Source: Alphaproteobacteria bacterium bin52
GTDB taxonomy: Bacteria > Pseudomonadota > Alphaproteobacteria > Thalassobaculales > Thalassobaculaceae
NCBI GenBank assembly: GCA_002238645.1
Contig: MPMT01000007.1
Span: forward strand, 7,502-71,501
Direction: 5' to 3'
Length of the DNA: 64,000 bases
Of the stretch, positions 23,901 through 42,525 are shown piece by piece. Position numbers and translations under genes: made by a program. Under the pieces are notes generated by a model. That model did not search any database. It had not been told where the DNA came from and saw only the letters and a list, made by a program, of their open reading frames with translations. The first letter of the stretch is position 1, and each line of letters opens with the position of its first letter.

Positions 23901-25185
23901 GCGCGATGCGATTGTACAGGCGCTGCGGGCCGGGGTCGTGCCCAAGCTTGGCCTAAGCCACATCCAGGTAGGCCGCGTCCGGGAAATCGAAGAACTCGTC
24001 AAAGACATGGACCGGATATCGGATGGCGGTTCGGCTATCCGGTTCATTGTTGGCGAATACGGGTCGGGCAAAACATTCTTCATGAACCTCATCCGGCTCG
24101 TTGCCCTCGAAAAGGGTCTGGTCGTGATGTTCGCGGACCTGGCGCCAGACCGGCGCATTCACGCCACGGGAGGGCAAGCTAGGGGGCTCTATGCCGAGAT
24201 GGCCCGAAACCTTTCAACGCGGACGAAACAAGATGGAGGGGCTTTGGCCAGTGTCGTGGAGCGGTTCGTCAGCCAAGCTCACCGCGACGCCGAAGAGCGC
24301 GATTTGCCCACGGGCTCTGTCATTCGGGAACGCCTAGGTCACTTCGAAGAACTCACTGGGGGTTTTGAGTTCGCAGAGGTCGTCCGGCGATATTGGGAAG
24401 GCCATGAGACGGGAGACGACGAACTGAAATCTGCCGCCTTGAGATGGCTGCGCGGTGAATTCGCCACACGCACTGACGCCCGAAAGGCTCTCGGTGTGCG
24501 CACGATCATCGACGATGCGAGAGTCTATGACCACCTTAAGCTGATGTCGGCATTTGTGTGCGAGGCCGGCTACAAGGGACTGCTTGTTGGCCTTGATGAG
24601 ATGGTGAACCTCTACAAGCTCACCTCTTCCCAGGCTCGCAACGCGAATTACGAGCAAATCCTCCGTATCCTCAACGATGTGCTGCAAGGCAGTGCTGAGA
24701 ACCTTGGTTTCCTCATGGGTGGCACACCGGAGTTTCTGATGAACACGCGTCGGGGGCTTTACAGTTACGAAGCCCTCCAGTCACGTTTGGCCGAAAACAC
24801 CTTCGCGCGCGACGGATTGGTCGATCTTTCCGGGCCGGTTGTTCGGCTTGCCAGCTTGACCCCCGAGGATCTCTTTGTGCTTCTGGGCAATGTTCGGCGC
24901 ATCATGCAGGACGACGCCAGCGCTTTGCCAGACGATGCGCTGGAGGCCTTCATGGCGCACTGTTCGGATCGTATCGGCGAAGCCTATTTTCGCACGCCGC
25001 GCAATACGGTGATGGCCTTCGTGAACTTGCTTTCCGTGCTTGAGCAAAATCCCGGTGTCGAATGGAACGATCTGATTGAAGAGATCGAGGTCGCGGAGGA
25101 CCTCGGCGAAGACATGACGGAGGTGGACGAGGAAATTGGCGCGCAAGACTCCGGTGACGATGATCTGATCAGCTTCAAACTCTGA
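23878..25185 (+). CDS. sngB: P-loop ATPase of the DUF2791 / BREX-type ATP-binding family (Shango SngB-like)
   Basis: The gene overlaps sngA by 23 nt. It has Walker A GEYGSGKT (24052-24075) within VGRVREIEELVKDMDRISDGGSAIRFIVGEYGSGKTFFMNLI, as I recall for DUF2791 proteins. Confidence 0.8.
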   Translation: MSKLKPRERDAIVQALRAGVVPKLGLSHIQVGRVREIEELVKDMDRISDGGSAIRFIVGEYGSGKTFFMNLIRLVALEKGLVVMFADLAPDRRIHATGGQARGLYAEMARNLSTRTKQDGGALASVVERFVSQAHRDAEERDLPTGSVIRERLGHFEELTGGFEFAEVVRRYWEGHETGDDELKSAALRWLRGEFATRTDARKALGVRTIIDDARVYDHLKLMSAFVCEAGYKGLLVGLDEMVNLYKLTSSQARNANYEQILRILNDVLQGSAENLGFLMGGTPEFLMNTRRGLYSYEALQSRLAENTFARDGLVDLSGPVVRLASLTPEDLFVLLGNVRRIMQDDASALPDDALEAFMAHCSDRIGEAYFRTPRNTVMAFVNLLSVLEQNPGVEWNDLIEEIEVAEDLGEDMTEVDEEIGAQDSGDDDLISFKL

Positions 25186-25190
25186 CGCCG

Positions 25191-28589: not shown

Positions 28590-31383
28590 ATGCTCGCCGA
28601 TACCGGTCAGCAGCATCATGACGCCGAGGACAACTACCGGCTGCATGCTGCCGCACTCGCCGACATCGAACGGATGCGGTCCGAGGCCCAGGGCCTGCAG
28701 CGGAGCATCGACGCGGCCAATGCCGACCTCGCACCGCAGCGCGACCACCTCGCGCGCACGGGAGCCCACCTGAAGGCCACGCTGCTCCACCATGTCGAAC
28801 AGCGCCGGAAGCACCTGGCGGAGCACGAACGTGCGTGTCGATCGCTTGAGGATGATGCCGCCCGAACCGATGACAGGCGCCAGAGACTGTTGAGCACTCG
28901 GGACACGGAACGCGAGGAAACAACCAGGTTCGCCACCATGCTCGACACTGCGGCCCGGGCGGCCGAACGGTTGCGGGAACAGGGCGTTCTCGAAATCGAG
29001 GCGGCAGGAGAGGATGCGAGCCGCCAAGCCTGCCTCGAATGCCGCATCACACTGCGCGAAGGCCGTGCCCGGCTCGATGCAGGGCTTGAGCGGGATCGCG
29101 GTCCCGCACCGGGACGCGCTCGAAGCCGCGCGTCGCGCGATTGCGAACGCCCCCGAACCGAACAGACCGCTGATGGTGGCCACCGCCGACGACACGCCTT
29201 CGGACGCGCCTGATGACAGGTTCGTCATCCCGCACCCGCGTGATGCGGCCTACAGCCAGCTGGCCGCCCGGGACGGGCAGTCCCAGGTCGAGGATGAGCT
29301 TCAGGACCTCGCGCGACGCATCGACGAGCTCCGGCCCCGGCTTGAGCGCCTCGAAGAACTGCATCGCACTCACACCCTGTGGCGCCGCACCGCGCCTGAA
29401 CGAAAGGAGCTGCTCAAGCGTATCGACGAGGCGGAGCGCACCCGGGCCAGATATGACCGGGAAGTCGAGCAACTCGATGCATCGGCCGAGGCTCACGCAA
29501 ATCGGGCCAGGGACCATCGCCGCGCTGCTACCCAGGCGGACCACGAGGCCGTAGTCCACCGGACCCGCGCCGGTCGGGCCCGGGAACAGTTCGAGGAACA
29601 TGAACGCCATGAGACCGACTGGAAGCGCGAACAGCTCGCACATGCCGACCGGGCGGAACTGGCCATACGCGACGCCGAAGCAGCCCTTGCGGAGCGCGAC
29701 CGGCCGAACGACCAGGCCCGGGCGGAGGCCGGGGAAGCCGGAGCAGCGGCGCGCGAGGCAGCCGGTTTCGAGACCGAGGCCGATGCCGTCTCGCCCGTCG
29801 CCGGCCCGGGCTCCGTTTACCGAGACCTTGCTACACTGCGCGACGGTTTCAACGCCGAACGCAAGAGCTTGGAAGCACTTGAAGGCGGCAGGGTTGACCG
29901 GCTGCGCGGCGAAAAGGATGGCTTGGACAAGCAGCTCGTGCGCGCCGAACAGAAGTACGGCGCCGACCATCATCAATTCGACCGCGAGCGGGTGCGCGCG
30001 CTACTGGAGCAGAGCCTGGTTGAGGATGGCGCCCGCAGGGCCGCGACCACCCTCGACGCTGCCCGCGCCGCGCTTACCGATGCCGAGGTCGAGGAACGCC
30101 ACACCCGACACCAGTTCGAGCAGGAGCAGCGCCGGTTTGCCGAGATATTCGGCACTGGCGATGCCGACGACCTTTGCGATACGGACGATCTCGATGCGCT
30201 GCGCCGAAACGCGCAGGTCGGGGCCGAGACCCGTGAACGGGAGGCGCGCAGACACGAGCAGGACGCGGAGGCGGCCAGCTCGACTGCCGCAGCGGCCGAA
30301 GCCACCGCCGGGACTTTCCGGAACCGGGCCCGTGAGATTACGGGTCACCTGCCCGACGGGTTCGGCACCCCCGGCCGGGTTGCACAAGTGCCGGACGATC
30401 AGGCACTCGACGATGCCGTCGATACCCTGGTCCGCACACTGCGCGATGGCAACCGGACCCTCGCCGATGCCGAACAGGCGCTTCTCGACCGGCACGAGGA
30501 GGAACGCGGGTTCGCCACGTCCGACGGGTTCCGCGTCCTGAAGGGCGAAAGCCAGGTCGCCTCCAATCTCGCCGCCAACTCGGCCCGTGACGCTGCCGAT
30601 GCCGCGGAGCAGACCGCCCGGCTGATCGACGACAGACTGGCGACGATCGATCACGACCTTGCACGACTCGATCATGACCTTGCAACCTGCACCGGCGAAC
30701 TCGACATGCTGCTGCGCAGGGCGCTCGGAATCCTGGGCCGGATGGTGCGCGACGGGCGTATCCCCGACGGCGTACCGCGGTTCGGTGGCCAGAGCGTGTT
30801 CCGGATCGGGACCGACCTGTCGCGTCTTGCTTCCGACCGCAGACGGGACATCCTCGAGCAATACGTGACCGATCTGGCCGAGTCGAAACGGGTCCCCGAC
30901 ACCGGCCAGAACCTGGCGGCGGAGCTCGTGGACCGGCTGCGGGTTGCCCGCGGCATTTCCAGGCTCGGCATAAGAATTCTGAAACCGAAAGGTGAGAACG
31001 AGACCGAGTAAATGCCGCTCGAACAGACTGCGGTCTCCGGGGGCGAGCTTCTGACGGCGGCAATGATGATCTACCTCGTGGTCGCGCGTCTGCGTGCGGA
31101 GGAACTGCACGGCACAACAGGCGATGCCGGGATCCTGATGATGGACAACCCGCTGGGCAAGGCGAACAAGGCCCTGCTGGTCAAGACCCAGATCGGCCTT
31201 GCCGACGCGATGGGCATCCAGCTGTTCTATGCCACCGGCATCCAGGACACGAACGCGCTCGGGGAGTTCGAGAACATAGTCCGGCTGCGCCGGGCCTGGC
31301 GCGAACTCGGCACCGACAGGATCCATCTCGCGGTCGAGGCGATGCAGGCCCACGTCGACAGCTTGGAGCGGACAAATGGGTGA
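28590..31383 (+). pseudogene. SMC-like (JetC/MksB-like) ATPase remnant: coiled-coil arms plus C-terminal head, lacking the N-terminal Walker A head
   Basis: The long Glu/Arg/Ala/Leu coiled-coil reading is split between frame 0 (28590-29213) and frame 1 (29014-31011). That requires a frameshift near 29085-29110. An in-frame TAA (31009-31011) is followed directly by MPLEQTAVSGGELLTAAMMIY...GILMMDNPLGKANKALL (ABC/SMC signature SGGE plus a Walker-B-like segment). No P-loop head lies upstream. Confidence 0.55.
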
Positions 31384-32427
31384 CTTCGTCGGACACCTGC
31401 GCGGCCTCGGCAAGCGGCGGTTCACGCTCGAGGAACTGCGAACTGCGCATCTCGCCGCCTTCCCCGAGGCGGCGGACGCCCTTGCCCCGCGTCGGTTGCT
31501 GCTCGAGGCGCTCGAAGACGCACGGGCAGCCGGTCACATCGCCCTGCCGCACACCAAGTACTGGGAACGGACCGGGACGCCGCACCTGCCGAAGTCGGCT
31601 ACGCTGTACGCTGAAGGGCTCGCCGCAGGACCGGTACCCTGGCCGGTGGCCTGGGTCCCCGAACTTGCCTTTGCCTACAGCGAACGGGGCCGGTACCGCA
31701 CCGCGCTCACCGCCATCAACCGCTTCCTGCTCAGGCACCGGAACACTGCCCTGCGCGAGGTACCGGTCAACGAACGGTCGCTGCAGATCTTCGGCAACGA
31801 GAAGCGGCTCGAGACCGATCTCGACACCGACGGCTCCACCCTGTTTGGTGGCCGCATCCCCCTGGGACTGATCGGCTGCCGCCCGGTCACGCCGCCGCTT
31901 GCGTTCGAGAAACCGAACCGGCCCGCGCCCGGGATGCCGGTCCTGGTGCTGGAGAACCTGCATCCGTGGGAGAGTTTCCGGCTGTGGAACGCGACGCGGG
32001 GCAGCTACGCCGCCATCGCCTGCGGTTACGGCAACGCCCTGCGCAAGACGCACAGGCAGCTCGAACAGGTCGCGGAGCTGCCGGCGCATCCGGACTGCTC
32101 TACTTCGGCGACCTGGATCCGCCGGGTCTGGAGATCCCGACCGCGGTCAACCGCGAGCGGCAGGCCCGGGGTCTTGCGCCGCTCGAGCCGCACTGCGGAC
32201 TCTATCGCTGGCTACTGCGCCACGGCTGCCGGTGGCTCAGCGATGCCGGCGCGAAGCAAAGCCGCGCCCCGGCTGACCTGTCAAACTAGCTGCCGGACGA
32301 CATCGCCGCCGGTCTCGCGGAGCTGTGGGCAGCCGGAGAGGTAATCCCGCAGGAGAGTTTCAGCACCGATCAGCTGGCCGGACCCGACGCCGTCTGGGTC
32401 CTGCCCGGCCGGGCCGTGCCGTCGTGA
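31376..32427 (+). pseudogene. JetD/MksG-like (DUF2220 Toprim) protein, disrupted
   Basis: The gene overlaps the preceding ORF by 8 nt. It contains VLVLENLHPWESF. After a frame change near 32090-32100 it reads LLYFGDLDPPGLEIP, a Toprim/DUF2220-like motif. An in-frame TAG at 32287-32289 follows, and the reading continues to 32427. Confidence 0.6.
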
Positions 32428-34579: not shown

Positions 34580-35605
34580 TCAAAGGGTGAGCCCTTCGGG
34601 CAATGCGACCTCTCCCGCTTCGCCCCTTGCCAACGGCACGGTCCGGTCCACTAGATCGCGCACGAGTTGTTGATGGCTGCCGAGCTTTCGGTTTCTTCCC
34701 AGGTGCTCCAGCCGATCCGCCATCGAGCGCATGAGGTCCGTCCCGCCGCGCACCTCCACACTCGGATCGGCGATACAGACGCGGAGCAGCCCTCGGACGA
34801 TGAACACGGTGTAGCGAAGCTCGAGTGCCCACTGGCCCTTGCCGCCGGGACGCCGGTCCGAGCGGCCCGCAGAGAGCCAGTCGAGCGCCGTGGTCGTGAG
34901 ACGCGTCACCTGGGAACGAAGTGCCGGGCGAGCCGCGAGCAGATCAGTCGTTTCCATTCTGCGGCCCATCGGATGGCTGATCGCCGCCAGCAAGAATTTG
35001 TCCGGTGTCGTGCCGTCCCAACAGCCAAGCAGGGTCTCCCAGACCGTCGCGAGGGCTGAGACCGTGTTCGTGCTCCGGCCGATCCCGGAGTAGGCGGCCC
35101 ACGCGCTGAAGGGGTTGTCGAGCCCGAGGCGGTCGGCAACGGCGCGGCCTTCGTCGGAGGTGCGCGCGAGCCCGGAAGCGAGCCTCAACGCGAGGGAGTC
35201 GGGGGCGTTCGTGAACATCCATGTCGGTACGGTGTGGACTCGATTGAGCGAGGCTCCCCTCTTGACCGTGCGTTGGCCGGTCAGCACTTCCTCAAAGCGA
35301 CCGACCATCGCGTCCCCGGCGTCGTTCACCAGGCGTCGACGTTCGCGTTCGGTCGTCTTGGCCTTGGGGGGGTCCGGATCTCGTACCCAAGGGGGGTCCC
35401 CCGCGCTGTCGATCGGATACCGGAGGTCGCTCCATTTCGAGTTGAAGATGTCGTAAAGACTCTTGTAGAGGTCGACAATCCTGGATCCTTCGGTGCGATC
35501 GTCTCGCCACCAGTCGCGAAGCTCGGCCAAATGGCTCTCGAGTTCGAGCCAAGCGTCCTCGTCGGCCTCGAAGACGTAAAGCAGAGGGATGGCCGCGACG
35601 TTCAT
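34580..35605 (-). CDS. Unknown 341-aa protein, last gene (E) of the McrBC-derived five-gene operon
   Basis: ATG 35603-35605 lies 13 nt downstream of the gene D stop and is preceded by a purine-rich AAGAGAG. The upstream part of track ORF 34580-36316 is an out-of-frame overlap with D. Composition looks coding, but I recognise no family. Confidence 0.6.
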   Translation of the reverse strand: MNVAAIPLLYVFEADEDAWLELESHLAELRDWWRDDRTEGSRIVDLYKSLYDIFNSKWSDLRYPIDSAGDPPWVRDPDPPKAKTTERERRRLVNDAGDAMVGRFEEVLTGQRTVKRGASLNRVHTVPTWMFTNAPDSLALRLASGLARTSDEGRAVADRLGLDNPFSAWAAYSGIGRSTNTVSALATVWETLLGCWDGTTPDKFLLAAISHPMGRRMETTDLLAARPALRSQVTRLTTTALDWLSAGRSDRRPGGKGQWALELRYTVFIVRGLLRVCIADPSVEVRGGTDLMRSMADRLEHLGRNRKLGSHQQLVRDLVDRTVPLARGEAGEVALPEGLTL

Positions 35606-35618
35606 CTCTCTTACCCGT

Positions 35619-38600
35619 TCAGTCGGGGTCCGACACACGAAGGATGGCGGGATGGGTCGCGATCTCACGACCGTCCAGCCCGTAAGGGTGGTGGTACAGC
35701 ACGAGTTGCGGCTCGCCTCCAAGCGGTCGCACGCGCACCCTCGGCTCAAGGCGCGTGTAGCCCCCGTGAAGTGCGCTGCGGTCGAGTTTGACCTCCTGGC
35801 GGTACTTCTCGTTGCCGGCCCCGGCGAGGAAGCCCTCCTGCCACTGGCCCTCCAGCCGTCGTCGCAGCTTGACCGGAACGCGCCATTCACCGGGCTGTAT
35901 CGAGAGCAGCACCTCATGCTGGGCTGGGGTAGTCCATAGGCCTCGGCCGGCTTCCAGCGCCTCGCGCTCGGGGATGAGGCGGAGCCACCAGCGTCCGTCC
36001 TCGTCTTCCTCGCATTTGTCGAGCGCAAGCCCCTCCGGCGGGGCGGCGACCTCGATGGCCAGGCTTTCGACGTGGTCGAGCCAGCAGACGTCGCCTTCGT
36101 CGAGGCGGCGTCCGATCTCCCAAGCACCCCGGAGGGTCTGCTCCGGCTCGACGGCCAGTACGGTGAGACCCGGCAACGCCGAGCTGATTTCTCGGGCTCC
36201 CGCGTCGCTCCAGCCCGGGATCGGACTCTCGACGAGAATTCGGCGGCAGCCGGTGCGTTCGGACAGGGCTCGGAGCGTTGCAACGAGCGATTCGTCGACG
36301 TCAATGGGGCGTGCATTGGGATCGTGACGACGCCGTATGGGAACCGCCTCGCCCCGCGTGAAGAGAAACGTCGATGTATTGCCCTCGTGCGGTTTTATCC
36401 GAGCCGCATCAAGGTGGAGGATGTCGGTCTGCGTCTTCAGATCGTCGACGTTCACTCCGGTTCGAGACCACGCGGCCTCGGCGGCGCGAAGTCGGCGGGG
36501 CCAGGGGGCCTCCCGGCCGGTGGCGACCGCGGAACCGCGAGTCATCCGCTCGACCAACAGCGGGACCTCGGCGCGCTGCCACGGCCGCAGCCGCGTATGG
36601 GTGAGGGCGACTTCGCCGTCCACCTGAACGATGAGGTAGTCTCCGGGCGCTCCACCGGTCAGTTTGTGGCCCTCCGTCACTGCGACGGACCGCCAGACGA
36701 GGAGGCAGCGCCGGTGCGGCCCGACGGCTTTGGAGAGGCCGTCGGCGACGCGTCGCTGTCTCTCTCCCGCTCGTAGCCCAGTGTCGGGCACGATCGCGAC
36801 GGCGAGCGGGTCGTCGCCCATGAGGCGGCGTACTGCGGACGAGACGAGTTCGTTGGCGAGGTCCATGGTCTCGATGTCGCCCAAAGGGATGTATGAGGCG
36901 GACCCGGTGGTCGGCTGGATCCTGGCTTGCGCGGCGACTTCTGTTGCCTCCCCGATCCCCCTTGCGCGAAGCGCCGTTCCGAGGAAGCGGACGTCGACCG
37001 ATCCGGTCGAATCTTCGCGGGCGAGGCGGGAGAACGAGGAGCGGAGATCGAGAGAGACGATGCCCGACCGGCTGCCGGATCGCCGGAGGCGTCCCAAGGG
37101 TGGTTCCGGGGCCAGCTTGGCGCCTCTTGGAACGCTGTGGAGGGTGGATGCGGTCGCTCGTTCGAGGAGCTTTCTTGTCCAGACCCGCCAGTTCCTCGCG
37201 CCGGTGTTGGTCGGGAGGGTGACGAGTCTTTCGCGCCGAGCCCGGCCGATCCAGTCAGCGCGATCGCTCGCGATCACGTGCAGCGCCGGACCGGGACCGA
37301 GCACGGTTGCGATCGCGCCGATCATGCAGCGGTCGTCCGTCGCGACCGAGAGGGAGGCGGAGGCGTGCTTGCCGACACGCAGGACGAGCGACGGGCCGTC
37401 GTCGGTCCAGTGTCGTCCCTGCGCCGGGGCGTCGCGCCGGATCGCGAGCGGGCCGCTCGCCACCACGAGTGGGGAGCTCTCGCCGAGCATGGCGCATATG
37501 GTTGCCTGGGCCTCATCCCGGCGGGTGAGCCCCTGCCAGATCCACTGCTGCTCGGCGCGCTGTTCCTGGCGGAGGAGGTCCAACCACGCCCCGAGGACAC
37601 GCCGGTAGCGCTCGTCGTGACGAAGCGCAAAACTCCGGTTCGTCGCCGTCGCGGCGTCGTGGGCCGGGGCTTGACGCGCGCCTTGGAGACGGAGTCCGTC
37701 GGCGACGCGCCGTGCCCGGTTCTGCATCGAACGTACGAGCTCGGCTCCGTGCGCCATATCGCCGCGCTCGGCAAGCCAAGACCTGGCCTCCGTGTCGTAG
37801 AGCGCCGCATAGGCGACCACGACGCGGTTCTCCAGGGTGTCGGTAGTCGCGTAGCGCTCCGGCGTCACCATCCTCTGCCGGGGGCCGCAGCGCTCCGCCG
37901 TCGAGCGTCCGGCTTGTCTGCACAGCCACCGGATCGTCTTGGCGTCCACCTCGCGTACCTTCGACAGGCGCACCGGGCGGTGGCGGCGGCGGAGGAGTCG
38001 ACGTGGGCTCCCCTCAATGCCCGCGAGCACAGGCAACAATGCCCGGGCCTGTTCCCGGAGGAGCTCTCCCAACGGATCGACCGCCTCCGGGTCGGCCTCG
38101 CTCGCGAGAATCGCGGCCGATGTGCGCCAGAGCACGGACTGGTCATGGCAGACCGCGCTCGCGTCCGCGACGCGCTTCATGCGGTTGGCGGCGCGGTCCA
38201 ACCTATCGAGGGTCCGTCCGGAGCGTTGCTTTGTTGCCGATGTACCCGCAGCTTGGCGCCGCCCTTCCCATGACTCGACGTTGATCGTGAACGACTGGTC
38301 GAGTGTTACCCAGACACGAATTCGACTGACCCGGGCCGGTCGGGCGGGGAGGTGCCACGCCAACCATTCGGCATCGATGTCGAGGCTCCCCGTGCCGCGC
38401 CCGCGGGTTCGCGGAAGATGTTGCCGGCTTCCCAGATAGATCCAGGGTGGAACCTCGCAGAGGGTGGAGTGCTCCGTGGGGGAGAGTCGATCGACGATCA
38501 GAATCGCATCGGCACGGGCGCGGTCCGGACCAAGCTCCTCCCCGCTCCGGACCGGTTGCACGACCGCCGAGCCGTCCCCGGCAACGGCAGCATGCAGATC

Positions 38601-38630
38601 GTACAGACTCCGGGCGACGCGAATCCTCAA
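35619..38630 (-). CDS. 1003-aa protein (gene D): McrC/DUF2357-like N-terminal half fused to a putative degenerate Hsp70/actin-like ATPase-fold half
   Basis: The TTG start lies 3 nt after the gene C stop; an alternative GTG sits at codon 23. The TLENR motif (aa 265-269, nt 37824-37838) is followed by the RYRRVLGAWLDLL helix, as in McrC-type partners. Residues ~520-850 follow the Hsp70 motif order (IVSLDLRSSFS; LAVAIVPDTGLRAGERQRRVADGLSKA; LIVQVDGEV; RILVESPIPGW; AVEPEQTLRGAWEIG). Confidence 0.7.
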   Translation of the reverse strand: MRIRVARSLYDLHAAVAGDGSAVVQPVRSGEELGPDRARADAILIVDRLSPTEHSTLCEVPPWIYLGSRQHLPRTRGRGTGSLDIDAEWLAWHLPARPARVSRIRVWVTLDQSFTINVESWEGRRQAAGTSATKQRSGRTLDRLDRAANRMKRVADASAVCHDQSVLWRTSAAILASEADPEAVDPLGELLREQARALLPVLAGIEGSPRRLLRRRHRPVRLSKVREVDAKTIRWLCRQAGRSTAERCGPRQRMVTPERYATTDTLENRVVVAYAALYDTEARSWLAERGDMAHGAELVRSMQNRARRVADGLRLQGARQAPAHDAATATNRSFALRHDERYRRVLGAWLDLLRQEQRAEQQWIWQGLTRRDEAQATICAMLGESSPLVVASGPLAIRRDAPAQGRHWTDDGPSLVLRVGKHASASLSVATDDRCMIGAIATVLGPGPALHVIASDRADWIGRARRERLVTLPTNTGARNWRVWTRKLLERATASTLHSVPRGAKLAPEPPLGRLRRSGSRSGIVSLDLRSSFSRLAREDSTGSVDVRFLGTALRARGIGEATEVAAQARIQPTTGSASYIPLGDIETMDLANELVSSAVRRLMGDDPLAVAIVPDTGLRAGERQRRVADGLSKAVGPHRRCLLVWRSVAVTEGHKLTGGAPGDYLIVQVDGEVALTHTRLRPWQRAEVPLLVERMTRGSAVATGREAPWPRRLRAAEAAWSRTGVNVDDLKTQTDILHLDAARIKPHEGNTSTFLFTRGEAVPIRRRHDPNARPIDVDESLVATLRALSERTGCRRILVESPIPGWSDAGAREISSALPGLTVLAVEPEQTLRGAWEIGRRLDEGDVCWLDHVESLAIEVAAPPEGLALDKCEEDEDGRWWLRLIPEREALEAGRGLWTTPAQHEVLLSIQPGEWRVPVKLRRRLEGQWQEGFLAGAGNEKYRQEVKLDRSALHGGYTRLEPRVRVRPLGGEPQLVLYHHPYGLDGREIATHPAILRVSDPD

Positions 38631-38633
38631 TTG

Positions 38634-40535
38634 CTAATCCGCGCGGGTCCGGTCGAGGCCGAGCCAAGTGAACGTGCTGTGGTTCGGGATGGCGTCGATA
38701 CGGGCGTCGAGCGCCGAGGCAAGGTCGTCGTCGCCCACGTTCTCGACCACGTCGCGCAGCGTACGGAGGCCTTTTCTCAACGCGTCCGTATCTTCGGAGC
38801 CGTTGAGCTTCGGGAGCACTCTCATCTCGACTTGGTCCGCGATGGCGTGCCGCCAGCTTCCGGGATAGCAGCGGACGTAGTGGTACATCGCCTGCACCAC
38901 GCGGTGCCCGACCCCCCGCTCGCACTCCGTGATCGCCCGTGCGATTTCGCGAATGGAGCCCTCGACCGCGAGCATGTCGGTGTCTTCCCGCTTCCGGCCG
39001 CACCACTTCTCGAAGAGCATTGCCGTCACATATTCTGTCTGCCGAGGGGCGGCCGGCTCGTCGCTCAGTCGATCCACCTGGAGATTCCCCTCGCTTGGCG
39101 CAGCGAAGCGCAGGGTGTTGCTCCGGTCAAGGACCTTGTCGGAAAGACTTTGCGTTGTTTCGTCCTCGTTGAGCGTTCCCGTCCAGAGCACACGATACGG
39201 AATGGCGAGGCGCATCGCCTGGATCTCGCCGTTTGCGCGTTTCGGCATCTGGATCGCGACTTGGCTTTCAGCGTAACCCGCCCCCCCCGGCTCGCGCATT
39301 TCAAGCCGACTCAGGAGTTCAGCGAAGTAGTACTCCGTGCGGGCGAGGTTCATCTCGTCGAGGAGGATGACGGCCAGCCGATTGGTGAATCGTTTGGCTT
39401 CGTCCGGCCAGTTGGCACTGTCGAAGTGCACCAGTAGCTGGGCTCGCTCGGTGGCCCTGTATTGCCCGGAGATGTAGTCGTAGAAGCCAAGCAGGTCCTG
39501 CGGGCTGTCCCATCCCGGCTCCACCGGGACGTGGAGGAACGCGGCGCCGAGGGCGCGAGCATACTCCCTCGGGAGCTGCGATTTTCCCGTTCCGGATACG
39601 CCAGCAAGGACGGTTAAAGGCGAGATTGACCGAGTCTTCACGGCGGTGTGAAAGGCCCTCACCGTGCGGGGGTGGTAGCGAAGCCTCTGGGCTTCGAGCT
39701 GCTGCTCGAGGTTGTCGAGAAACTCGTCCTCCCGCTCCACGGGCCGATCCGTCGGCAGCGGCTCGTAGTCCTCTACTTCGGTCAGGCAAGCGGGGGTGTC
39801 ACGGAGCTCGTCGATCCCTGGTCCCGTCTCTTCCGGACGATCCACCTGCACTCGCAACGGTCCCTCGGGAAACGTCACCTCTCCTCCGGTGAGCTGGGCA
39901 TTCTCGAGTGCCTCTTTCACTTCCTTCGCCGCAGCCAGCTCCTGGAGCGCGTTGTCGCGTTGGCGTATCGCGCCCTCGCACTCCTCCCTTGCTTGGTCCC
40001 GAGTACGGCGAGCCTCCTGCGCGTCGGCCTGAAGCTCTGAAACTTCCTTCTTCAGGTGACTGATTTGGTCGCGCAATCGCGCATGCAGTTCGCTGTGCTT
40101 CTCCAGTTCCACCTCAAGGCGCTTCTTCTCTGCGTCGAGGCCATCTGTGGCCCGCCGCAAGCGTTCCATCTCTGCGAGTTTCTCGTCGGCTCCTTGGAGT
40201 TGGCGTTGCTTCTGGTCGAGGCGGCTCTCGAGTTCCGCAACCGTACGGTTGACCTCTTCGCGAGCCGTGTCGAGGGCCTGTTCGTCTCGCTGGATCTGCT
40301 GTGCCTGTTCAATCGTGTTCTTCGCGTCGCGATATTCGGCGTCGATCGAGGTGAGCGACGCCGAGACGCGATCATGCTCGGCCAGGAGCTGGGCGATCCT
40401 CGCTCGCCACAGGTCCAGTTCGCCTCGCCGAACAGCCCCGACAAAGATCGCCACGGCAAAGCCGACGAGGACCGCGGTCAGCGTGGTGGCCCCGTGGAGT
40501 ATCCATCCTTGCGCTACCCACGACGGCCAAGTCAT
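38634..40535 (-). CDS. Membrane-anchored coiled-coil McrB-like AAA+ GTPase (gene C)
   Basis: It has an N-terminal TM helix (ILHGATTLTAVLVGFAVAIFVGAV) and ~170 aa of coiled coil. Walker A GVSGTGKS is at 39579-39602 and Walker B is AVILLDEMNLA. GTLNEDETTQSLSDKVLDRSNTLRF matches the McrB/AAA_5 signature. The start overlaps the gene B stop (ATGA). Confidence 0.8.
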   Translation of the reverse strand: MTWPSWVAQGWILHGATTLTAVLVGFAVAIFVGAVRRGELDLWRARIAQLLAEHDRVSASLTSIDAEYRDAKNTIEQAQQIQRDEQALDTAREEVNRTVAELESRLDQKQRQLQGADEKLAEMERLRRATDGLDAEKKRLEVELEKHSELHARLRDQISHLKKEVSELQADAQEARRTRDQAREECEGAIRQRDNALQELAAAKEVKEALENAQLTGGEVTFPEGPLRVQVDRPEETGPGIDELRDTPACLTEVEDYEPLPTDRPVEREDEFLDNLEQQLEAQRLRYHPRTVRAFHTAVKTRSISPLTVLAGVSGTGKSQLPREYARALGAAFLHVPVEPGWDSPQDLLGFYDYISGQYRATERAQLLVHFDSANWPDEAKRFTNRLAVILLDEMNLARTEYYFAELLSRLEMREPGGAGYAESQVAIQMPKRANGEIQAMRLAIPYRVLWTGTLNEDETTQSLSDKVLDRSNTLRFAAPSEGNLQVDRLSDEPAAPRQTEYVTAMLFEKWCGRKREDTDMLAVEGSIREIARAITECERGVGHRVVQAMYHYVRCYPGSWRHAIADQVEMRVLPKLNGSEDTDALRKGLRTLRDVVENVGDDDLASALDARIDAIPNHSTFTWLGLDRTRAD

Positions 40536-41578
40536 TGGGACGTACCAACCGCGGTTCCGATGAGCCGTTGCAGCTCCTCCAACCCAGCTTTGGCTTCATC
40601 CCGCGCCGTCCGGAGACGGGTGAGGTCGGAGCGAAGCGCCGCTTTCTTTGCTTCGAGTTCAGTGACCTGCCGTTCCGCTGCCCCGCGGCTCGCCTCTACC
40701 CGATCCAACGCCGCTTGCGCTTCGTGCATGCGCGACTCGGCGTCCAGGGCTTCCTGAACAGCCGCTTCGCGGTCCTTTCCCATCTGCGCCATTGCTTCGG
40801 CCGCGTTGCGAACGGTGCCTTCGAGGCGTTTCTCGTCGTCGCGAAGCCGCGTGATCCGGGCTTCCAGACCCGCTGCCTCGGGACCGAGCTTGAGGAGCTG
40901 AGCTTCGAGCGCGCGGTGCTGCGTCTCGAGGCGGACCTTCTCGCGGTTTGCTTCCTCGACCTGCTCGAGCGTGGCGCTAAGCTCCTCGCGTGCCTTTTCG
41001 TTTCCAGTCACAGTCTCGGTCAGCGATCGCTTTGCTTCGGTGAGGTCGGTGCGCGCTTGATCAAGCTCACTGCGGGCATTCGTCGTGGCGGAGCGGACAT
41101 CCTCAAGCTGGCGCGTCCCAGTTTCGAACAACTGTTCCAGCTCGGTTTTCTGTTGTTGGAGGCCTTCAATCGAGAGTCCGAGATCCCGTTGACGGCGTTC
41201 GAGCGTGGCGACGTTGGCTGACAGGTCGGCTTCCGTCTTCCCAAGCTGCTTGACGCTTTCCCGGGTTGCGTTCTCCTCTTCTTGAATCGTCCGCAGAGTC
41301 GTATGGGCGTGGTTTAGCCGGGTCGTCACTTCGTCGGCTTCCAGCCGAATCTGCTCCGTCTGCTCAACCAGTTTCTCGATCTGAAGCTCAAGGCGATCGC
41401 GGCGCTGGCCGAGTTGCTCCACGTCGGCCTCAAGTGCCAAGCGCTGCCCGGGAAGCCCCTCAAGTGCGTCGTCCACCTGCGAACGGGCGATGTTGAGCAG
41501 GGCGGCCGTGACGATCATTGCCAATGCCAAGGCCGACAAGACGATCCTTCCTCCTGTCGAGACCAACTTTGTGCTCAT
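40532..41578 (-). CDS. Membrane-anchored all-coiled-coil protein (gene B)
   Basis: The internal ATG at 41576-41578 overlaps the gene A stop (ATGA). The product has a TM helix (IVLSALALAMIVTAALLNI) followed by ~300 aa of uninterrupted heptad-like Glu/Leu/Arg/Gln/Ala sequence. Confidence 0.7.
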   Translation of the reverse strand: MSTKLVSTGGRIVLSALALAMIVTAALLNIARSQVDDALEGLPGQRLALEADVEQLGQRRDRLELQIEKLVEQTEQIRLEADEVTTRLNHAHTTLRTIQEEENATRESVKQLGKTEADLSANVATLERRQRDLGLSIEGLQQQKTELEQLFETGTRQLEDVRSATTNARSELDQARTDLTEAKRSLTETVTGNEKAREELSATLEQVEEANREKVRLETQHRALEAQLLKLGPEAAGLEARITRLRDDEKRLEGTVRNAAEAMAQMGKDREAAVQEALDAESRMHEAQAALDRVEASRGAAERQVTELEAKKAALRSDLTRLRTARDEAKAGLEELQRLIGTAVGTSQ

Positions 41579-42525
41579 TGTTCTCTCAGTTCCTCTATTC
41601 GTTGCTGGACGCGGGCGGCACATGCCCGAGCGTCTTGGTCGACCTGATCGGACCAGAAGCGAAGTGGCTCCCAACCGAGCAGTCGCATGCGGCGGTCGCG
41701 GTCGACATCCTCTGGGCGGAGGCGTCCGTCGGGTCCCTGATGGTAGAGGCGTCCGTCGACCTCGATGTCGAGCCGCACGATTGGGGGCCCGGGCTCCTCA
41801 TAAGCGAAGTCGAGCCAGCTTCCGCCCACCGGCCGCTGGCTCTCGACCTCGATTTGGGCGCCGGCGAGCGCGGCTTCGAGGTGCCGTTCACTGTTCGAGG
41901 CGGTCCCACCACGGCCGCGTTCGGCCTCGCGGGTGATCGCACGCTCTGCCCAACGGGCGAGCCCCGCCAGCCCTTCCGGGGTGGTGCATGGACCAACGAA
42001 GTGGACGAGCGTTCCTGCATGGCGGAAAGCGGTGAGGAGTTCGTGCTCCGCTACGTCGGGAAGTACCGTGGTCGTGTCCCAGTAGACCAGATCGCCGTTC
42101 ATGCCGATCAGCTTGGCGCGCTCTGACTCGGTCAGCTGACCTGTAAGGACCTCAACACGGGGAGCTTCCGACAACAGAATCTTGGCGAGCGTGATCTCGG
42201 CCGCGATGCGGTTCGGGATCTGTTTGGGGGGACAGGTGGTCCAATGCCAACGTTGCCAATTCTTGCGGGCGTCGGCGAGCGTCCAGCCGCGAATTCTGGA
42301 GGGGAAGACCTTCCCATCTAGAAGCAGGCGGCAGACCTCGAGGAGCGCCCCGGGGCTGAGGGTTACGGCTTCGCCATCGGAGCATACTCGGCTCAGCCGT
42401 ACGCCTGCGAGTCGAGCGGTATGGCGAGCGCCGAGCCAGCGTCCTTGGGGTCGAGCTTGCGAGGGAAGTCGGGATTCCAACGGGGGATCTGCGGTCTCGT
42501 GCGCGGCGTGCTGAGGTTCGCCCAT
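41575..42525 (-). CDS. Protein with C-terminal DUF559 / Vsr-like PD-(D/E)XK endonuclease domain and unknown N-terminal ~210 aa (gene A)
   Basis: The C-terminus (..SWLDFAYEEPGPPIVRLDIEVDGRLYH...DVDRDRRMRLLGWEPLRFWSDQV) matches the DUF559 pattern (xDF..., IExDG, RDxxLxxxGWxVLRF). The putative catalytic D239/E255/D257 are present. Confidence 0.7.
   Translation of the reverse strand: MGEPQHAAHETADPPLESRLPSQARPQGRWLGARHTARLAGVRLSRVCSDGEAVTLSPGALLEVCRLLLDGKVFPSRIRGWTLADARKNWQRWHWTTCPPKQIPNRIAAEITLAKILLSEAPRVEVLTGQLTESERAKLIGMNGDLVYWDTTTVLPDVAEHELLTAFRHAGTLVHFVGPCTTPEGLAGLARWAERAITREAERGRGGTASNSERHLEAALAGAQIEVESQRPVGGSWLDFAYEEPGPPIVRLDIEVDGRLYHQGPDGRLRPEDVDRDRRMRLLGWEPLRFWSDQVDQDARACAARVQQRIEELREQ

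What the first reader, a model, noticed from the sequence alone, without database searches (positions are those of the whole stretch)
38634..41578. Both coiled-coil proteins (B, and the McrB-like GTPase C) start with a single predicted transmembrane helix
Seen directly:
- B begins MSTKLVSTGGRIVLSALALAMIVTAALLNIARSQ, then has ~300 aa of unbroken heptad-like sequence.
- C begins MTWPSWVAQGWILHGATTLTAVLVGFAVAIFVGAVRRGE, then has ~170 aa of coiled coil before the AAA+ domain.

Established knowledge: canonical McrB is a soluble DNA-binding GTPase.

Inference: a membrane-tethered McrB homologue paired with a membrane-tethered coiled-coil rod suggests surveillance at the inner membrane, for example at DNA entry sites. 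It could also indicate a membrane-directed effector output. The hydrophobic N-termini could alternatively be uncleaved signal anchors.
Basis: partly seen in the sequence, partly recalled or inferred. Interest (0 to 1): 0.6.

Follow-up and report, generated by a model that had tools for sequence, protein, structure and literature searches.

The report
Membrane-anchored CoCoNuT McrB motor and partner
Two adjacent genes of a predicted anti-virus operon, a coiled-coil rod protein and a McrB-type GTPase, each really begin with one conserved membrane-spanning helix, and their charge patterns predict that they face opposite sides of the cell membrane.

Summary
B (40532-41578, minus strand) and C (38634-40535, minus strand) each start with one strongly hydrophobic roughly 20-residue segment, followed by about 300 aa (B) and about 170 aa (C) of heptad-periodic helix.

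The start codons are supported by ATGA gene overlaps and by conservative substitutions in close relatives.

The operon is a helicase-less variant of the computationally described Type III-B CoCoNuT system (Bell et al. 2024):
- A is a Vsr-like nuclease.
- B is CnuA.
- C is the NxD-type McrB GTPase CnuB.
- D is CnuC fused to the front of CnuD.
- E is the rear of CnuD.

The anchors are family-wide:
- 129 of 138 full-length CnuB cluster representatives have one.
- 75 of 84 genomic loci have one in CnuB.
- 66 CnuA genes have one.
- Seven more distant McrB homologues lack one.

The describing paper's main text does not mention these anchors.

New here is the flanking-charge pattern. CnuB has none before the helix and several after it, which predicts N-out/C-in with a cytoplasmic GTPase. 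CnuA has the reverse pattern, which predicts N-in/C-out with an exported rod. This argues against a simple cytoplasmic B-C coiled coil. The function, presumed to be membrane-proximal defence, remains inference.

The parts
41575..42525 (-). Gene A: 316-aa protein with a C-terminal Vsr-like PD-(D/E)xK nuclease domain (MTES_1575/DUF559). It stands where related loci have the CnuH helicase-Vsr fusion. No TM segment.
   Evidence: Pfam PF18741 3.4e-10 and PF04480 7.3e-06 on residues 214-310. It matches only the Vsr end of CnuH in relatives. Maximum KD19 is 1.15.
40532..41578 (-). Gene B: 348-aa CnuA-like protein, made of an N-terminal membrane helix plus a coiled-coil rod.
   Evidence: ORF and ATGA overlaps at both ends. 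Only generic coiled-coil family hits. AF2 mean pLDDT 80. Orthologues in L085 and L086.
41546..41578 (-). B residues 1-11 (MSTKLVSTGGR): short, positively charged N-terminal tail, predicted cytoplasmic.
   Evidence: K4 and R11 precede the helix. Across 66 CnuA genes, K/R within 6 residues is 2.41 before and 1.05 after the helix, with N>C in 48 and N<C in 2.
41486..41545 (-). B residues 12-31 (IVLSALALAMIVTAALLNIA): single membrane-spanning helix (signal anchor).
   Evidence: KD19 2.46 and summed Hessa value -1.3. Helical in AF2. Conservative substitutions only in relatives. An equivalent segment is present in 66 related loci.
40556..41455 (-). B residues 42-341: coiled-coil rod, with GLPG at 41-44 and GP at 232-233 as the only possible breaks.
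   Evidence: Period 3.5, z = 27.7. AF2 gives one continuous helix 42-341, with pLDDT above 90 over about residues 70-270.
38634..40535 (-). Gene C: 633-aa CnuB, an NxD-type McrB-family AAA+ GTPase with an N-terminal membrane helix and a coiled-coil stalk.
   Evidence: PADLOC PDC-M26A 2e-36. Pfam AAA_5. Alignment invariants. AF2. Foldseek hits include McrB 6ut3_D and 6hz4_E among helix-2-insert AAA+ proteins.
40491..40535 (-). C residues 1-15 (MTWPSWVAQGWILHG): uncharged, Trp-rich N-terminal tail, predicted to lie on the outer face of the membrane.
   Evidence: No K/R before the helix. Family-wide, K/R is 0.08 before and 1.69 after, with N<C in 72 of 75 loci. In 131 representatives it is 0.02 before and 2.28 after, with N>C in none.
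40431..40490 (-). C residues 16-35 (ATTLTAVLVGFAVAIFVGAV): single membrane-spanning helix, followed immediately by RR.
   Evidence: KD19 2.26 and summed Hessa value -0.4. Part of AF2 helix 11-204. Conserved in 111/120, 129/138 and 75/84 homologue sets. Absent from 7 more distant McrB homologues.
39924..40430 (-). C residues 36-204: cytoplasmic coiled-coil stalk of about 170 aa.
   Evidence: Period 3.45, z = 7.8. Continuous AF2 helix to residue 204.
38676..39812 (-). C residues 242-620: AAA+ GTPase domain with Walker A GVSGTGKS (312-319), Walker B LLDEMN (391-396) and signature N456-E-D458-E.
   Evidence: These residues are invariant in a 40-sequence alignment. The NxD variant followed by E is as defined by Bell et al.. 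High pLDDT.
35619..38630 (-). Gene D: 1003-aa fusion of CnuC (McrC N-terminal DUF2357) with the N-terminal half of CnuD. No convincing TM segment; one borderline, proline-rich internal window (KD19 1.63 at 435-453).
   Evidence: PF09823 9.9e-08. Residues about 55-448 align to separate CnuC proteins of relatives. Residues 594-978 align to a CnuD profile, hhalign 97.4%. The same 1003/1010-aa gene occurs in L086 and L085.
34580..35605 (-). Gene E: 341-aa protein homologous to the C-terminal third of CnuD. No TM segment.
   Evidence: phmmer E 4e-25 to 2e-45 against residues about 530-870 of CnuD ORFs in L001, L003, L005, L007, L008, L039 and L081. Maximum KD19 is 1.36.

Best explanation
**What it is.** B and C are the CnuA and CnuB subunits of a helicase-less variant of the Type III-B CoCoNuT system, a McrBC-derived predicted defence system. 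Each is held in the cytoplasmic membrane by one N-terminal helix. This anchoring is a hallmark of the whole clade, not a peculiarity of this genome.

**CnuB (C).** It is predicted to insert N-out/C-in. A short uncharged tail faces outward. The helix is followed by RR. A stalk of about 170 residues (about 25 nm) hangs the NxD-type GTPase ring in the cytoplasm below the membrane. There the ring can engage the soluble McrC/CnuD-like proteins D and E and the Vsr-like nuclease A.

**CnuA (B).** It carries the opposite charge signature, with a basic tail before the helix and an acidic or neutral stretch after it. It is therefore predicted, at about 60-65%, to insert N-in/C-out as a signal anchor. 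Its roughly 300-residue rod would then lie on the periplasmic side.

**Most likely working model.** The two antiparallel helices sit together in the membrane. The GTPase-nuclease machine is thereby stationed under the envelope where foreign nucleic acid enters. CnuA may act as an envelope-side anchor or sensor.

**Shown.**
- The helices exist, are translated and are conserved.
- There is one helix per protein.
- The coiled coils are real.
- The GTPase motifs are intact.
- The genes are coupled in one operon.
- The locus lies in a defence island and is patchily distributed.

**Inferred.**
- The topologies, which rest on the positive-inside rule.
- The oligomeric state.
- Pairing of the two helices.
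- Any sensing role.
- The target and the defence function itself; no CoCoNuT has been tested experimentally in the literature I could search.
For: **Hydrophobicity and helices:**

**Start codons:** ATGA overlaps; synonymous and conservative changes in the first 40 codons against L084-L086.

**Family-wide conservation from independent gene calls:**
- 111/120 homologues.
- 129/138 full-length representatives, with median helix start at residue 9.
- 75/84 loci from many phyla.
- CnuA anchor in 66 loci and in all five loci with database gene calls.
- Exactly one hydrophobic region per protein.
- Negative control: 7 more distant McrB homologues from the same phylum, three of them with roughly 470-aa coiled coils, have no such segment (maximum KD 0.35-1.32), while the one close homologue does.

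**Charge asymmetry:**
- CnuB K/R is 0.08 before and 1.69 after, Wilcoxon p = 7e-14.
- CnuA K/R is 2.41 before and 1.05 after, p = 1.6e-9.
- N-flank K/R of CnuA against CnuB gives Mann-Whitney p = 6e-27.

**Family assignment:**
- NxD motif and Walker motifs are invariant.
- DUF2357 is present in D.
- The layout CnuH(helicase-Vsr)-CnuA-CnuB-CnuC-CnuD is seen in most related loci.
- D and E are homologous to CnuC and CnuD.

**Defence context:**
- Shango SngABC and JetC/JetD remnants lie within 15 kb.
- The gene is absent from 3 of 3 same-genus genomes and present in 2 of 21 other same-family genomes.
Against: - No dedicated topology predictor (TMHMM, DeepTMHMM, SignalP) was available, and there are no experimental data. 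The topologies rest on the positive-inside rule applied by my own script.
- The loci are phylogenetically related, so the p-values overstate independence.
- A rod of 300 aa here, median about 460 aa in the family and up to about 1030 aa, would be 45-150 nm if straight. That is longer than a typical periplasm is wide. An exported rod would have to lie along the membrane, fold back or oligomerise. AF2 gave no hairpin.
- Both families have conserved sequence just after the helix. This would also fit contact on the same side of the membrane.
- A cyanobacterial relative (L061) has the CnuB anchor with no CnuA gene, so CnuB anchoring does not need CnuA.
- Membership of 'Type III-B' is judged by architecture only.
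Confidence: 0.62

Rival explanations
1. Both rods are cytoplasmic. B and C insert in the same orientation (N-out/C-in). Their coiled coils then pair or bundle under the membrane into one heteromeric stalk that carries the GTPase ring. that CnuA interacts with the other coiled coils.
For: - Rods of 45-150 nm fit the cytoplasm better than the periplasm.
- Both proteins have conserved motifs immediately after the helix.
- The genes are translationally coupled.
- There is a weak positive rank correlation of coil lengths, rho 0.34.
- Bell et al. propose coiled-coil contacts among Cnu proteins.
Against: - CnuA has 2.4 K/R in the 6 residues before its helix, against 0.08 for CnuB, with N>C in 48 loci and N<C in 2. 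Moving such a basic tail across the membrane is strongly disfavoured under the positive-inside rule.
- The residues just after the CnuA helix are acidic or neutral.
- Coil lengths differ greatly (median 461 against 307 residues). The Pearson correlation is not significant.
Confidence: 0.22
2. B is not a membrane protein in its mature form. Its N-terminus is a cleavable Sec-type signal peptide, and mature B is a soluble periplasmic coiled-coil protein. Only C is membrane-anchored.
For: - B has a basic n-region followed by a hydrophobic h-region.
- In the helicase-less subclade the hydrophobic stretch ends in small residues at -3/-1 just before Q/E: AWSALA|QE, AFSAVG|QE, AWAALG|QE, ACVAIG|EE, YATIA|QE.
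- The same subclade has an RR pair in the tail, QRRT(V/I)G(L/F).
Against: - The hydrophobic stretch is 19-25 residues, median 25 uncharged. That is longer than usual h-regions.
- In this window the candidate site is LNIA|RS, with N at -3 and R at +1, which is poor for signal peptidase I.
- In the larger helicase-bearing group the stretch ends in bulky residues (…SVALI|QV, …GFLVL|QV) with no cleavage motif.
- No signal-peptide predictor was available.
Confidence: 0.1
3. The helices are the output rather than an anchor. On activation, the six CnuB helices, with or without CnuA, rearrange to damage the membrane and kill or arrest the infected cell (abortive infection).
For: - Many defence systems end in membrane-disrupting helices (general knowledge).
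- Small-xxx-small spacing occurs in the helix of C, at G25, A29 and G33 (direct reading of the sequence).
Against: - The operon already carries a dedicated nuclease, gene A, which is Vsr-like.
- The helices have no polar or charged face that could line a pore.
- Their sequences are poorly conserved apart from hydrophobicity. This suits an anchor better than a gated effector.
- There is one helix per chain only.
Confidence: 0.08
4. The hydrophobic N-termini are annotation artefacts. Translation starts downstream, and both proteins are soluble.
For: - High-GC DNA gives long open frames.
- The B frame is open for a further 32 codons upstream.
- C has only a weak Shine-Dalgarno-like sequence.
Against: - There are ATGA overlaps with the preceding stop codons.
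- The segment is conserved in hydrophobic character across phyla at 40-50% GTPase identity.
- The charge patterns are conserved.
- The substitutions are synonymous or conservative.
- C has no internal Met before about residue 120, by direct reading.
Confidence: 0.02

Closest known systems
Type III-B CoCoNuT (CnuH, CnuA, CnuB, CnuC, CnuD); Bell, Sahakyan, Makarova, Wolf and Koonin, eLife 2024 (PMC11090510). Computational description only.
   Same: - NxD-type McrB GTPase with a long N-terminal coiled coil (CnuB).
- A separate coiled-coil protein just upstream (CnuA).
- A DUF2357 McrC homologue (CnuC).
- CnuD-homologous sequence.
- A Vsr-like nuclease.
- Mostly Alphaproteobacteria.
- Most relatives of C found here have exactly the published five-gene layout.
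   Different: - In this window the SF1 helicase is missing; gene A keeps only the Vsr-like domain.
- CnuC is fused to the front half of CnuD, and the rear third of CnuD is a separate gene.
[quoted passage not shown] It never mentions a membrane helix for them. Here both anchors are family-wide.
[quoted passage not shown] Mentioned, not yet described in detail, in Bell et al. 2024.
   Same: - An NxD-clade McrB GTPase.
- Its N-terminal extension contains a transmembrane helix and a coiled coil, described there as FtsB-like.
   Different: - No signal-peptidase or pilus-assembly gene is in or next to the operon, here or in six related loci with gene calls.
- No Pfam DivIC/FtsB match appears in 40 CnuB homologues.
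- The partners here are Vsr, CnuA and CnuD.
Canonical E. coli McrBC Type IV restriction enzyme
   Same: - An AAA+ GTPase of the McrB family with Walker A/B and a sensor-1 Asn motif.
- It is paired with a DUF2357 McrC-type partner encoded downstream.
   Different: - McrB is soluble and carries an N-terminal DNA-reading domain and an NxxD motif.
- C has a membrane helix plus a coiled coil instead, and an NxD motif.
Bitopic N-out/C-in membrane-anchored coiled-coil proteins such as EzrA and RNase Y. This is an architecture analogy from my own knowledge.
   Same: - A single N-terminal helix with no basic residues before it and basic residues after it.
- The helix is followed by a cytoplasmic coiled coil and then a catalytic or binding domain.
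- C residues 24-212 gave a weak NCBIfam match to the N-terminus of RNase Y, E = 0.0019.
   Different: There is no homology beyond the generic helix plus coil, and the downstream domain is different.
FtsB/FtsL/DivIC-type and FtsEX-EnvC-type envelope coiled coils. This is an analogy for CnuA from my own knowledge.
   Same: - The predicted N-in/C-out signal anchor followed by an extracytoplasmic coiled coil resembles FtsB/DivIC.
- 4 of 30 CnuA proteins hit Pfam DivIC and 6 hit DUF3450.
- FtsEX-EnvC is a precedent for a cytoplasmic NTPase coupled through the membrane to a periplasmic coiled coil.
   Different: - The matches are weak, below curated cut-offs, and may reflect only helix plus coil composition.
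- CnuA rods are much longer.
- No division or cell-wall genes are linked.
Zorya (ZorA tail) and Shield (ShdA: helix + coiled coil + RmuC nuclease). These are membrane-linked defence systems with long coiled coils; ShdA is cited in Bell et al., Zorya from my own knowledge.
   Same: Both use a membrane-anchored long coiled coil to link the envelope to a cytoplasmic nuclease activity in phage defence.
   Different: - The proteins are unrelated.
- In Zorya the coil is the tail of a MotAB-like motor.
- In Shield the nuclease is fused to the coil.
- Here the coil carries a McrB GTPase ring.

Membership tests
Type III-B CoCoNuT (Bell et al. 2024) | McrB-like GTPase with the NxD signature variant, usually followed by E or D | tested here: met
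   N456-E457-D458-E459 is invariant in a 40-sequence alignment, as are Walker A G312-K318 and Walker B D393-E394. Definition.
Type III-B CoCoNuT (Bell et al. 2024) | Long coiled coil fused N-terminally to the GTPase (CnuB) | tested here: met
   Period 3.45, z = 7.8 for residues 38-215. AF2 helix 11-204.
Type III-B CoCoNuT (Bell et al. 2024) | Separate coiled-coil protein CnuA with no other recognisable domain, encoded next to CnuB | tested here: met
   B gives only generic coiled-coil hits and is a single roughly 300-aa helix. It has in addition a membrane helix that is not part of the published description.
Type III-B CoCoNuT (Bell et al. 2024) | McrC homologue with DUF2357 (CnuC) downstream of CnuB | tested here: met
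   PF09823 9.9e-08 on D. D residues 55-448 align to separate CnuC proteins.
Type III-B CoCoNuT (Bell et al. 2024) | SF1 UPF1-like helicase CnuH fused to a Vsr-like nuclease | tested here: not met
   Gene A is 316 aa with only the MTES_1575/DUF559 domain. Most relatives have a helicase-Vsr fusion of 1050-1150 aa. A helicase-less subclade exists: L001, L003, L005, L007, L008, L039, L049, L081 and L084-L086.
Type III-B CoCoNuT (Bell et al. 2024) | Separate CnuD gene (Hsp70-like NBD/SBD plus helical repeats) | tested here: inconclusive
   CnuD-homologous sequence is present but rearranged. D residues 594-978 align to the CnuD profile at 97.4%, and E aligns to the CnuD C-terminal third. The Hsp70 fold itself was not verified: the CnuD profile found no PDB sequence. 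An earlier scan note asserts it.
Type III-B CoCoNuT (Bell et al. 2024) | Placement of the GTPase inside the published III-B branch of the tree | not testable with these tools
   The III-B sheet of the paper's sequence supplement is truncated in the held copy.
CoCoPALM | GTPase fused to a domain homologous to FtsB (transmembrane helix plus coiled coil) | tested here: inconclusive
   The helix plus coil is present, but no Pfam DivIC/FtsB hit appears in 40 CnuB homologues. The paper used more sensitive profile methods.
CoCoPALM | Associated signal-peptidase-family / pilus-assembly proteins | tested here: not met
   None among A-E, nor among called genes of L081-L086.
CoCoPALM | Coiled coil also fused to the McrC homologue | not tested
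   D was not analysed for coiled coils.
Canonical McrBC | NxxD signature motif and an N-terminal DNA-binding domain on McrB | tested here: not met
   The motif is NxD. The N-terminus is a membrane helix plus a coiled coil.
Canonical McrBC | McrC with an active PD-(D/E)xK nuclease | not tested
   Only the DUF2357 part of D was identified.
Single-pass N-out/C-in (type III) membrane anchor: protein C | One N-terminal hydrophobic stretch of about 20 residues, no basic residues before it, basic residues directly after it | tested here: met
   KD 2.26. One segment only. K/R 0 before, RR directly after. Family-wide K/R 0.08 before and 1.69 after, and 0.02 before and 2.28 after. The topology itself is not testable with these tools.
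Single-pass N-in/C-out (type II signal anchor): protein B | Basic N-terminal tail, one hydrophobic stretch, acidic or neutral stretch after it | tested here: met
   K4 and R11 precede the stretch; RSQVDDALE follows it. Family-wide K/R is 2.41 before and 1.05 after, with D/E 0.18 before and 1.56 after. In this window the bias is modest (2 K/R before, R32 just after). The topology itself is not testable with these tools.

The most novel reading that the evidence does not exclude
CnuA is an exported, periplasm-facing coiled-coil rod. Its signal-anchor helix packs antiparallel against the anchor helix of the cytoplasmic CnuB GTPase.

The Type III-B CoCoNuT would then be a trans-envelope machine. 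An event on the outer side of the cytoplasmic membrane, such as phage tail penetration, cell-wall damage or membrane deformation, would be relayed mechanically through the paired helices and the CnuB stalk. That signal would switch on the McrB-type GTPase and its nuclease partners.

This would be the first Type IV-restriction-derived system that senses infection at the envelope rather than by reading nucleic acid.
Probability: 0.25. Interest if true: 0.8.

Novelty: new variant of a known kind. Interest (0 to 1): 0.55.

Why it matters
CoCoNuTs are a large family of McrBC-derived systems that has not been tested experimentally. Their proposed mechanism, RNA or DNA targeting through cytoplasmic coiled-coil contacts, was drawn without any membrane component for Types II and III.

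If the Type III-B clade is anchored in the membrane by both CnuA and CnuB, three things change:
- Where the machine works: at the envelope, where phage genomes enter.
- How it should be purified and imaged: as a membrane complex.
- Which interactions are possible.

If CnuA's rod is outside the cytoplasm, it cannot bundle with the CnuB, CnuD or CnuH coils as proposed. The system would then need a trans-membrane signalling step. That would link McrB-type motors to envelope sensing in the way recently found for unrelated systems.

The prediction is cheap to test with reporter fusions in laboratory strains.

Tried and rejected
**Searches that led nowhere.**
- The search for related loci with protein C alone found no relative. 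It worked only with an alignment.
- A homology search with B returned a single fragment, because coiled-coil words swamped the candidates.
- A search with the N-terminal 90 residues of a CnuA returned nothing. I therefore could not look for CnuA fusions to domains of known compartment.
- A profile of C against PDB sequences returned only myosin/SMC-type coiled coils. The fold search was needed to see the AAA+/McrB relationship.
- A CnuD profile found no PDB sequence, so the Hsp70 likeness is unverified here.
- The paper's supplement is truncated before the III-B sequences.
- Literature searches for later CoCoNuT work, membrane-anchored McrB or PDC-M26 found nothing beyond Bell et al. 2024.

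**Ideas rejected.**
- Downstream start codons.
- CoCoPALM membership: no signal peptidase and no FtsB hit.
- D/E as a frameshift artefact: the same split is present in L085 and L086.
- Strict length matching of the two coils.

**Not available.** There was no TMHMM, DeepTMHMM, SignalP, coiled-coil predictor or multimer structure prediction. I replaced them with Kyte-Doolittle/Hessa scans, a Fourier periodicity test with shuffles, flank-charge counts and monomer AF2.

Full report
**1. What is in the sequence**

On the minus strand between 34580 and 42525 there are five co-directional genes:
- A, 41575-42525, 316 aa.
- B, 40532-41578, 348 aa.
- C, 38634-40535, 633 aa.
- D, 35619-38630, 1003 aa.
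- E, 34580-35605, 341 aa.

The A/B and B/C junctions are ATGA overlaps.

The quoted N-termini are correct. Hydrophobicity results:
- B residues 12-30 have a Kyte-Doolittle 19-residue mean of 2.46 and a summed Hessa value of -1.3.
- C residues 17-35 score 2.26 and -0.4.
- A and E have no window at or above 1.6.
- D has one borderline, proline-rich internal window of 1.63.

The rest of B and the first third of C are coiled coil:
- In B 35-348 the hydrophobic periodicity peaks at exactly 3.5 residues, z = 27.7, with 0 of 500 shuffles as high.
- In C 38-215 it peaks at 3.45, z = 7.8, with 0 of 500.
- The GTPase domain as a control gives z = -1.2.

AlphaFold2 models agree:
- B is helix 15-40 plus a single helix 42-341, mean pLDDT 80.
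- C is one helix 11-204, a disordered linker 205-240 and a well-predicted AAA+ domain, mean pLDDT 77.7 and pTM 0.62.

**2. Are the hydrophobic segments translated?**

Three metagenomic relatives with C proteins 84-92% identical keep the same gene order. They also keep the same N-termini in both genes.

Over the first 40 codons they differ from the window by 4-15 synonymous changes and 4-9 replacements. The replacements are nearly all hydrophobic for hydrophobic or small residues, R for K, or D for E; the exceptions are M1V at a GTG start and P4L in the short N-terminal tail.

In one relative the B start is GTG instead of ATG at the same position.

**3. What the operon is**

Protein C:
- It hits the PADLOC candidate model PDC-M26A at 2e-36.
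- It hits Pfam AAA_5.
- Its model matches helix-2-insert AAA+ proteins in the PDB, including McrB structures 6ut3 and 6hz4.
- In a 40-sequence alignment the Walker A, Walker B and N456-E-D458-E residues are invariant.

The last motif is the NxD variant of the McrB signature. Bell et al. (eLife 2024, PMC11090510) use it to define the branch that contains the CoCoNuT systems.

Other genes:
- D carries DUF2357, the McrC N-terminal domain.
- A carries a Vsr-like MTES_1575/DUF559 nuclease domain.

I fetched 80 genomic loci encoding relatives of C and six more with database gene calls.

Most have the layout below:
1. An SF1 helicase fused to a Vsr-like nuclease, about 1050-1150 aa.
2. A coiled-coil protein, about 450-650 aa.
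3. The GTPase.
4. A DUF2357 protein, about 530 aa.
5. A protein of about 800-930 aa.

This is the published Type III-B CoCoNuT: CnuH, CnuA, CnuB, CnuC, CnuD.

The window belongs to a subclade in which the first gene keeps only the Vsr-like part. Its members are L001, L003, L005, L007, L008, L039, L049, L081 and L084-L086.

In the window and its two nearest complete relatives:
- D residues about 55-448 align to CnuC.
- D residues 594-978 align to the front of CnuD, hhalign 97.4%.
- E aligns to the last third of CnuD, E-values 4e-25 to 2e-45.

So B is CnuA and C is CnuB. The locus is a rearranged, helicase-less variant of Type III-B.

I could not confirm the Hsp70 likeness of CnuD. I also could not place C in the published tree.

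It is not the CoCoPALM group, the one NxD clade for which the paper mentions a transmembrane, FtsB-like extension:
- No signal-peptidase gene is linked.
- No FtsB/DivIC match is seen in 40 CnuB homologues.

**4. The anchors are a property of the clade**

CnuB:
- Among the 120 best database homologues of the GTPase domain, with gene calls made by others, 111 have a segment with KD at or above 1.6, starting at residues 1-17 in all but one.
- Among 150 representatives of clusters at 50% identity or less, 131 have it. Of the 138 that are at least 600 aa long, 129 have it. The median start is residue 9.
- In the 84 loci, 75 have it. The exceptions are truncated contigs, a broken frame and one Ala/Gly-rich borderline case.

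CnuA:
- The gene immediately upstream of CnuB encodes a protein with an N-terminal hydrophobic segment in 66 loci.
- The same holds in all five loci with independent, intact gene calls.

Each protein has only one hydrophobic region.

As a negative control I examined seven more distant McrB-like homologues from genomes of the same phylum.
- Their GTPase E-values are 1e-10 to 1e-25.
- Three of them have roughly 470-aa coiled-coil N-termini.
- None has such a segment; maximum KD is 0.35-1.32.
- The one close homologue in that sample does have it.

A cyanobacterial relative, L061, has CnuB followed by CnuC and a helicase but no CnuA. It also has the CnuB anchor.

**5. What the literature says**

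In the main text of Bell et al., 'transmembrane' occurs only for FtsB/CoCoPALM, EssC, a 4-TM protein and ShdA.
[quoted passage not shown] I found no later paper on these proteins.

Several earlier notes of this scan, on other genomes, reached the same conclusion about conserved anchors. I read them only after my own survey, and they are not independent evidence. None that I could find addresses topology.

**6. Topology: the new point**

I counted K+R in the six residues on either side of the uncharged stretch.

| Family | K/R before | K/R after | More after | More before | Wilcoxon p |
|---|---|---|---|---|---|
| CnuB (75 loci) | 0.08 | 1.69 | 72 | 1 | 7e-14 |
| CnuA (66 loci) | 2.41 | 1.05 | 2 | 48 | 1.6e-9 |

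- For CnuA the acidic residues are 0.18 before and 1.56 after.
- The N-flanks of the two families differ with p = 6e-27.
- The 131 representatives give 0.02 against 2.28 for CnuB, with none reversed.
- The loci are related, so these p-values are inflated. The pattern nevertheless holds across Pseudomonadota, Planctomycetota, Kiritimatiellota, Lentisphaerota, Desulfobacterota and Bacillota.

By the positive-inside rule (established knowledge):
- CnuB is N-out/C-in, as a GTPase must be.
- CnuA is N-in/C-out.

In the window itself the C protein is clear-cut: no charge before the helix, RR directly after. B is more modest: K4 and R11 before, then R32 followed by D36, D37 and E40.

If this holds, the CnuA rod is on the periplasmic side.

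Coil lengths fit poorly with full-length pairing. The medians are 461 against 307 residues; Spearman is 0.34 and Pearson 0.13, not significant.

Against the exported-rod reading:
- A straight rod of 300-1000 residues is 45-150 nm, longer than a periplasm is wide.
- AF2 shows no hairpin.
- Both families have conserved motifs just after the helix, which would also suit same-side contact.

In the helicase-less subclade the CnuA hydrophobic stretch ends in A-x-A or A-x-G just before QE. There, a cleaved signal peptide is a minor possibility. It is less likely in this window, where the site reads LNIA|RS.

I put the N-in/C-out reading of B at about 60-65%.

**7. Mechanism**

Shown:
- Two single-pass anchors.
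- Two coiled coils.
- Intact GTPase motifs.
- A coupled operon with a nuclease and McrC/CnuD-like partners that have no convincing membrane segments.
- Location next to Shango (SngABC, 21354-27362) and remnants of a Wadjet-type JetC/JetD pair (29014-32344).
- A patchy distribution: absent from three same-genus genomes, present in 2 of 21 other same-family genomes.

Inferred:
- CnuB forms a McrB-like ring, suspended about 25 nm under the membrane by its stalks.
- The ring engages D, E and A in the cytoplasm.
- CnuA sits beside it with inverted orientation, as an envelope-side anchor or sensor.
- The complex acts on incoming foreign nucleic acid near its entry point.

A membrane-damaging output is less likely. 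The reasons are the hydrophobic, poorly conserved helices and the presence of a dedicated nuclease.

**8. Verdict**

- The system is a new variant (helicase-less, CnuC-CnuD rearranged) of a known, untested kind.
- The conserved membrane anchoring, and especially the predicted opposite topology of CnuA and CnuB, is not in the published description that I could read.
- It is directly testable with reporter fusions.

Noticed in passing
window 21354-27362 (+): A complete three-gene Shango system: SngA 2.6e-101, SngB 9.2e-175, SngC 1.3e-269 by PADLOC. It sits on a lower-GC stretch (0.55-0.61 against about 0.67), so the CoCoNuT operon lies in a defence island.
   Followed up: yes
window 29014-32344 (+): ORFs matching only the C-terminal half of JetC (profile positions 682-1322 of 1451) and JetD (4.8e-42). 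This looks like a truncated Wadjet-type remnant.
   Followed up: partly
window 34580-38630 (-): Gene E is not an orphan. It is homologous to the last third of CnuD, E 4e-25 to 2e-45. Gene D is CnuC fused to the front of CnuD. The same 1003/1010 + 341 aa split is present in relatives L086 and L085, so it is not a frameshift artefact.
   Followed up: yes
L061:9062-14600: A cyanobacterial relative has CnuB (841 aa, N-terminal membrane helix, about 500-aa coil) followed by CnuC and a helicase. There is no CnuA gene; housekeeping genes lie upstream. It is possibly the Type III-C layout. The CnuB anchor therefore does not depend on CnuA.
   Followed up: partly
L002:6477-9680: A CnuA-like open frame of 1067 aa, about 1030 residues after the helix. 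That is twice the family median. It may be an internal duplication or a read-through of two genes that are separate in its relative L082 (466 + 143 aa).
   Followed up: no
L001, L003, L005, L007, L008, L009, L039, L081 (CnuA N-termini): In the helicase-less subclade the CnuA tail carries a conserved QRRT(V/I)G(L/F) motif with a twin arginine. The hydrophobic stretch ends in A-x-A/G directly before a conserved QEILTLPExR motif. This is reminiscent of a cleavable (possibly Tat-type) signal peptide. The window's own B lacks the RR.
   Followed up: no
L015, L032, L036, L065, L066, L075: In Kiritimatiellia, Lentisphaeria and Bacillota loci the helicase-Vsr gene lies downstream of CnuC/CnuD instead of upstream of CnuA. 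The gene order of the family is therefore not fixed.
   Followed up: no
L084:2300-3460: The B orthologue of this close relative is split by a frameshift. The contig has only 3.39x coverage, so an assembly error is as likely as a real pseudogene.
   Followed up: no
own genome and relatives (G000-G040): The CnuB gene is single-copy in the window's genome, absent from all three same-genus genomes sampled, and present in only two of 21 other same-family genomes. This is typical of a mobile accessory system.
   Followed up: partly
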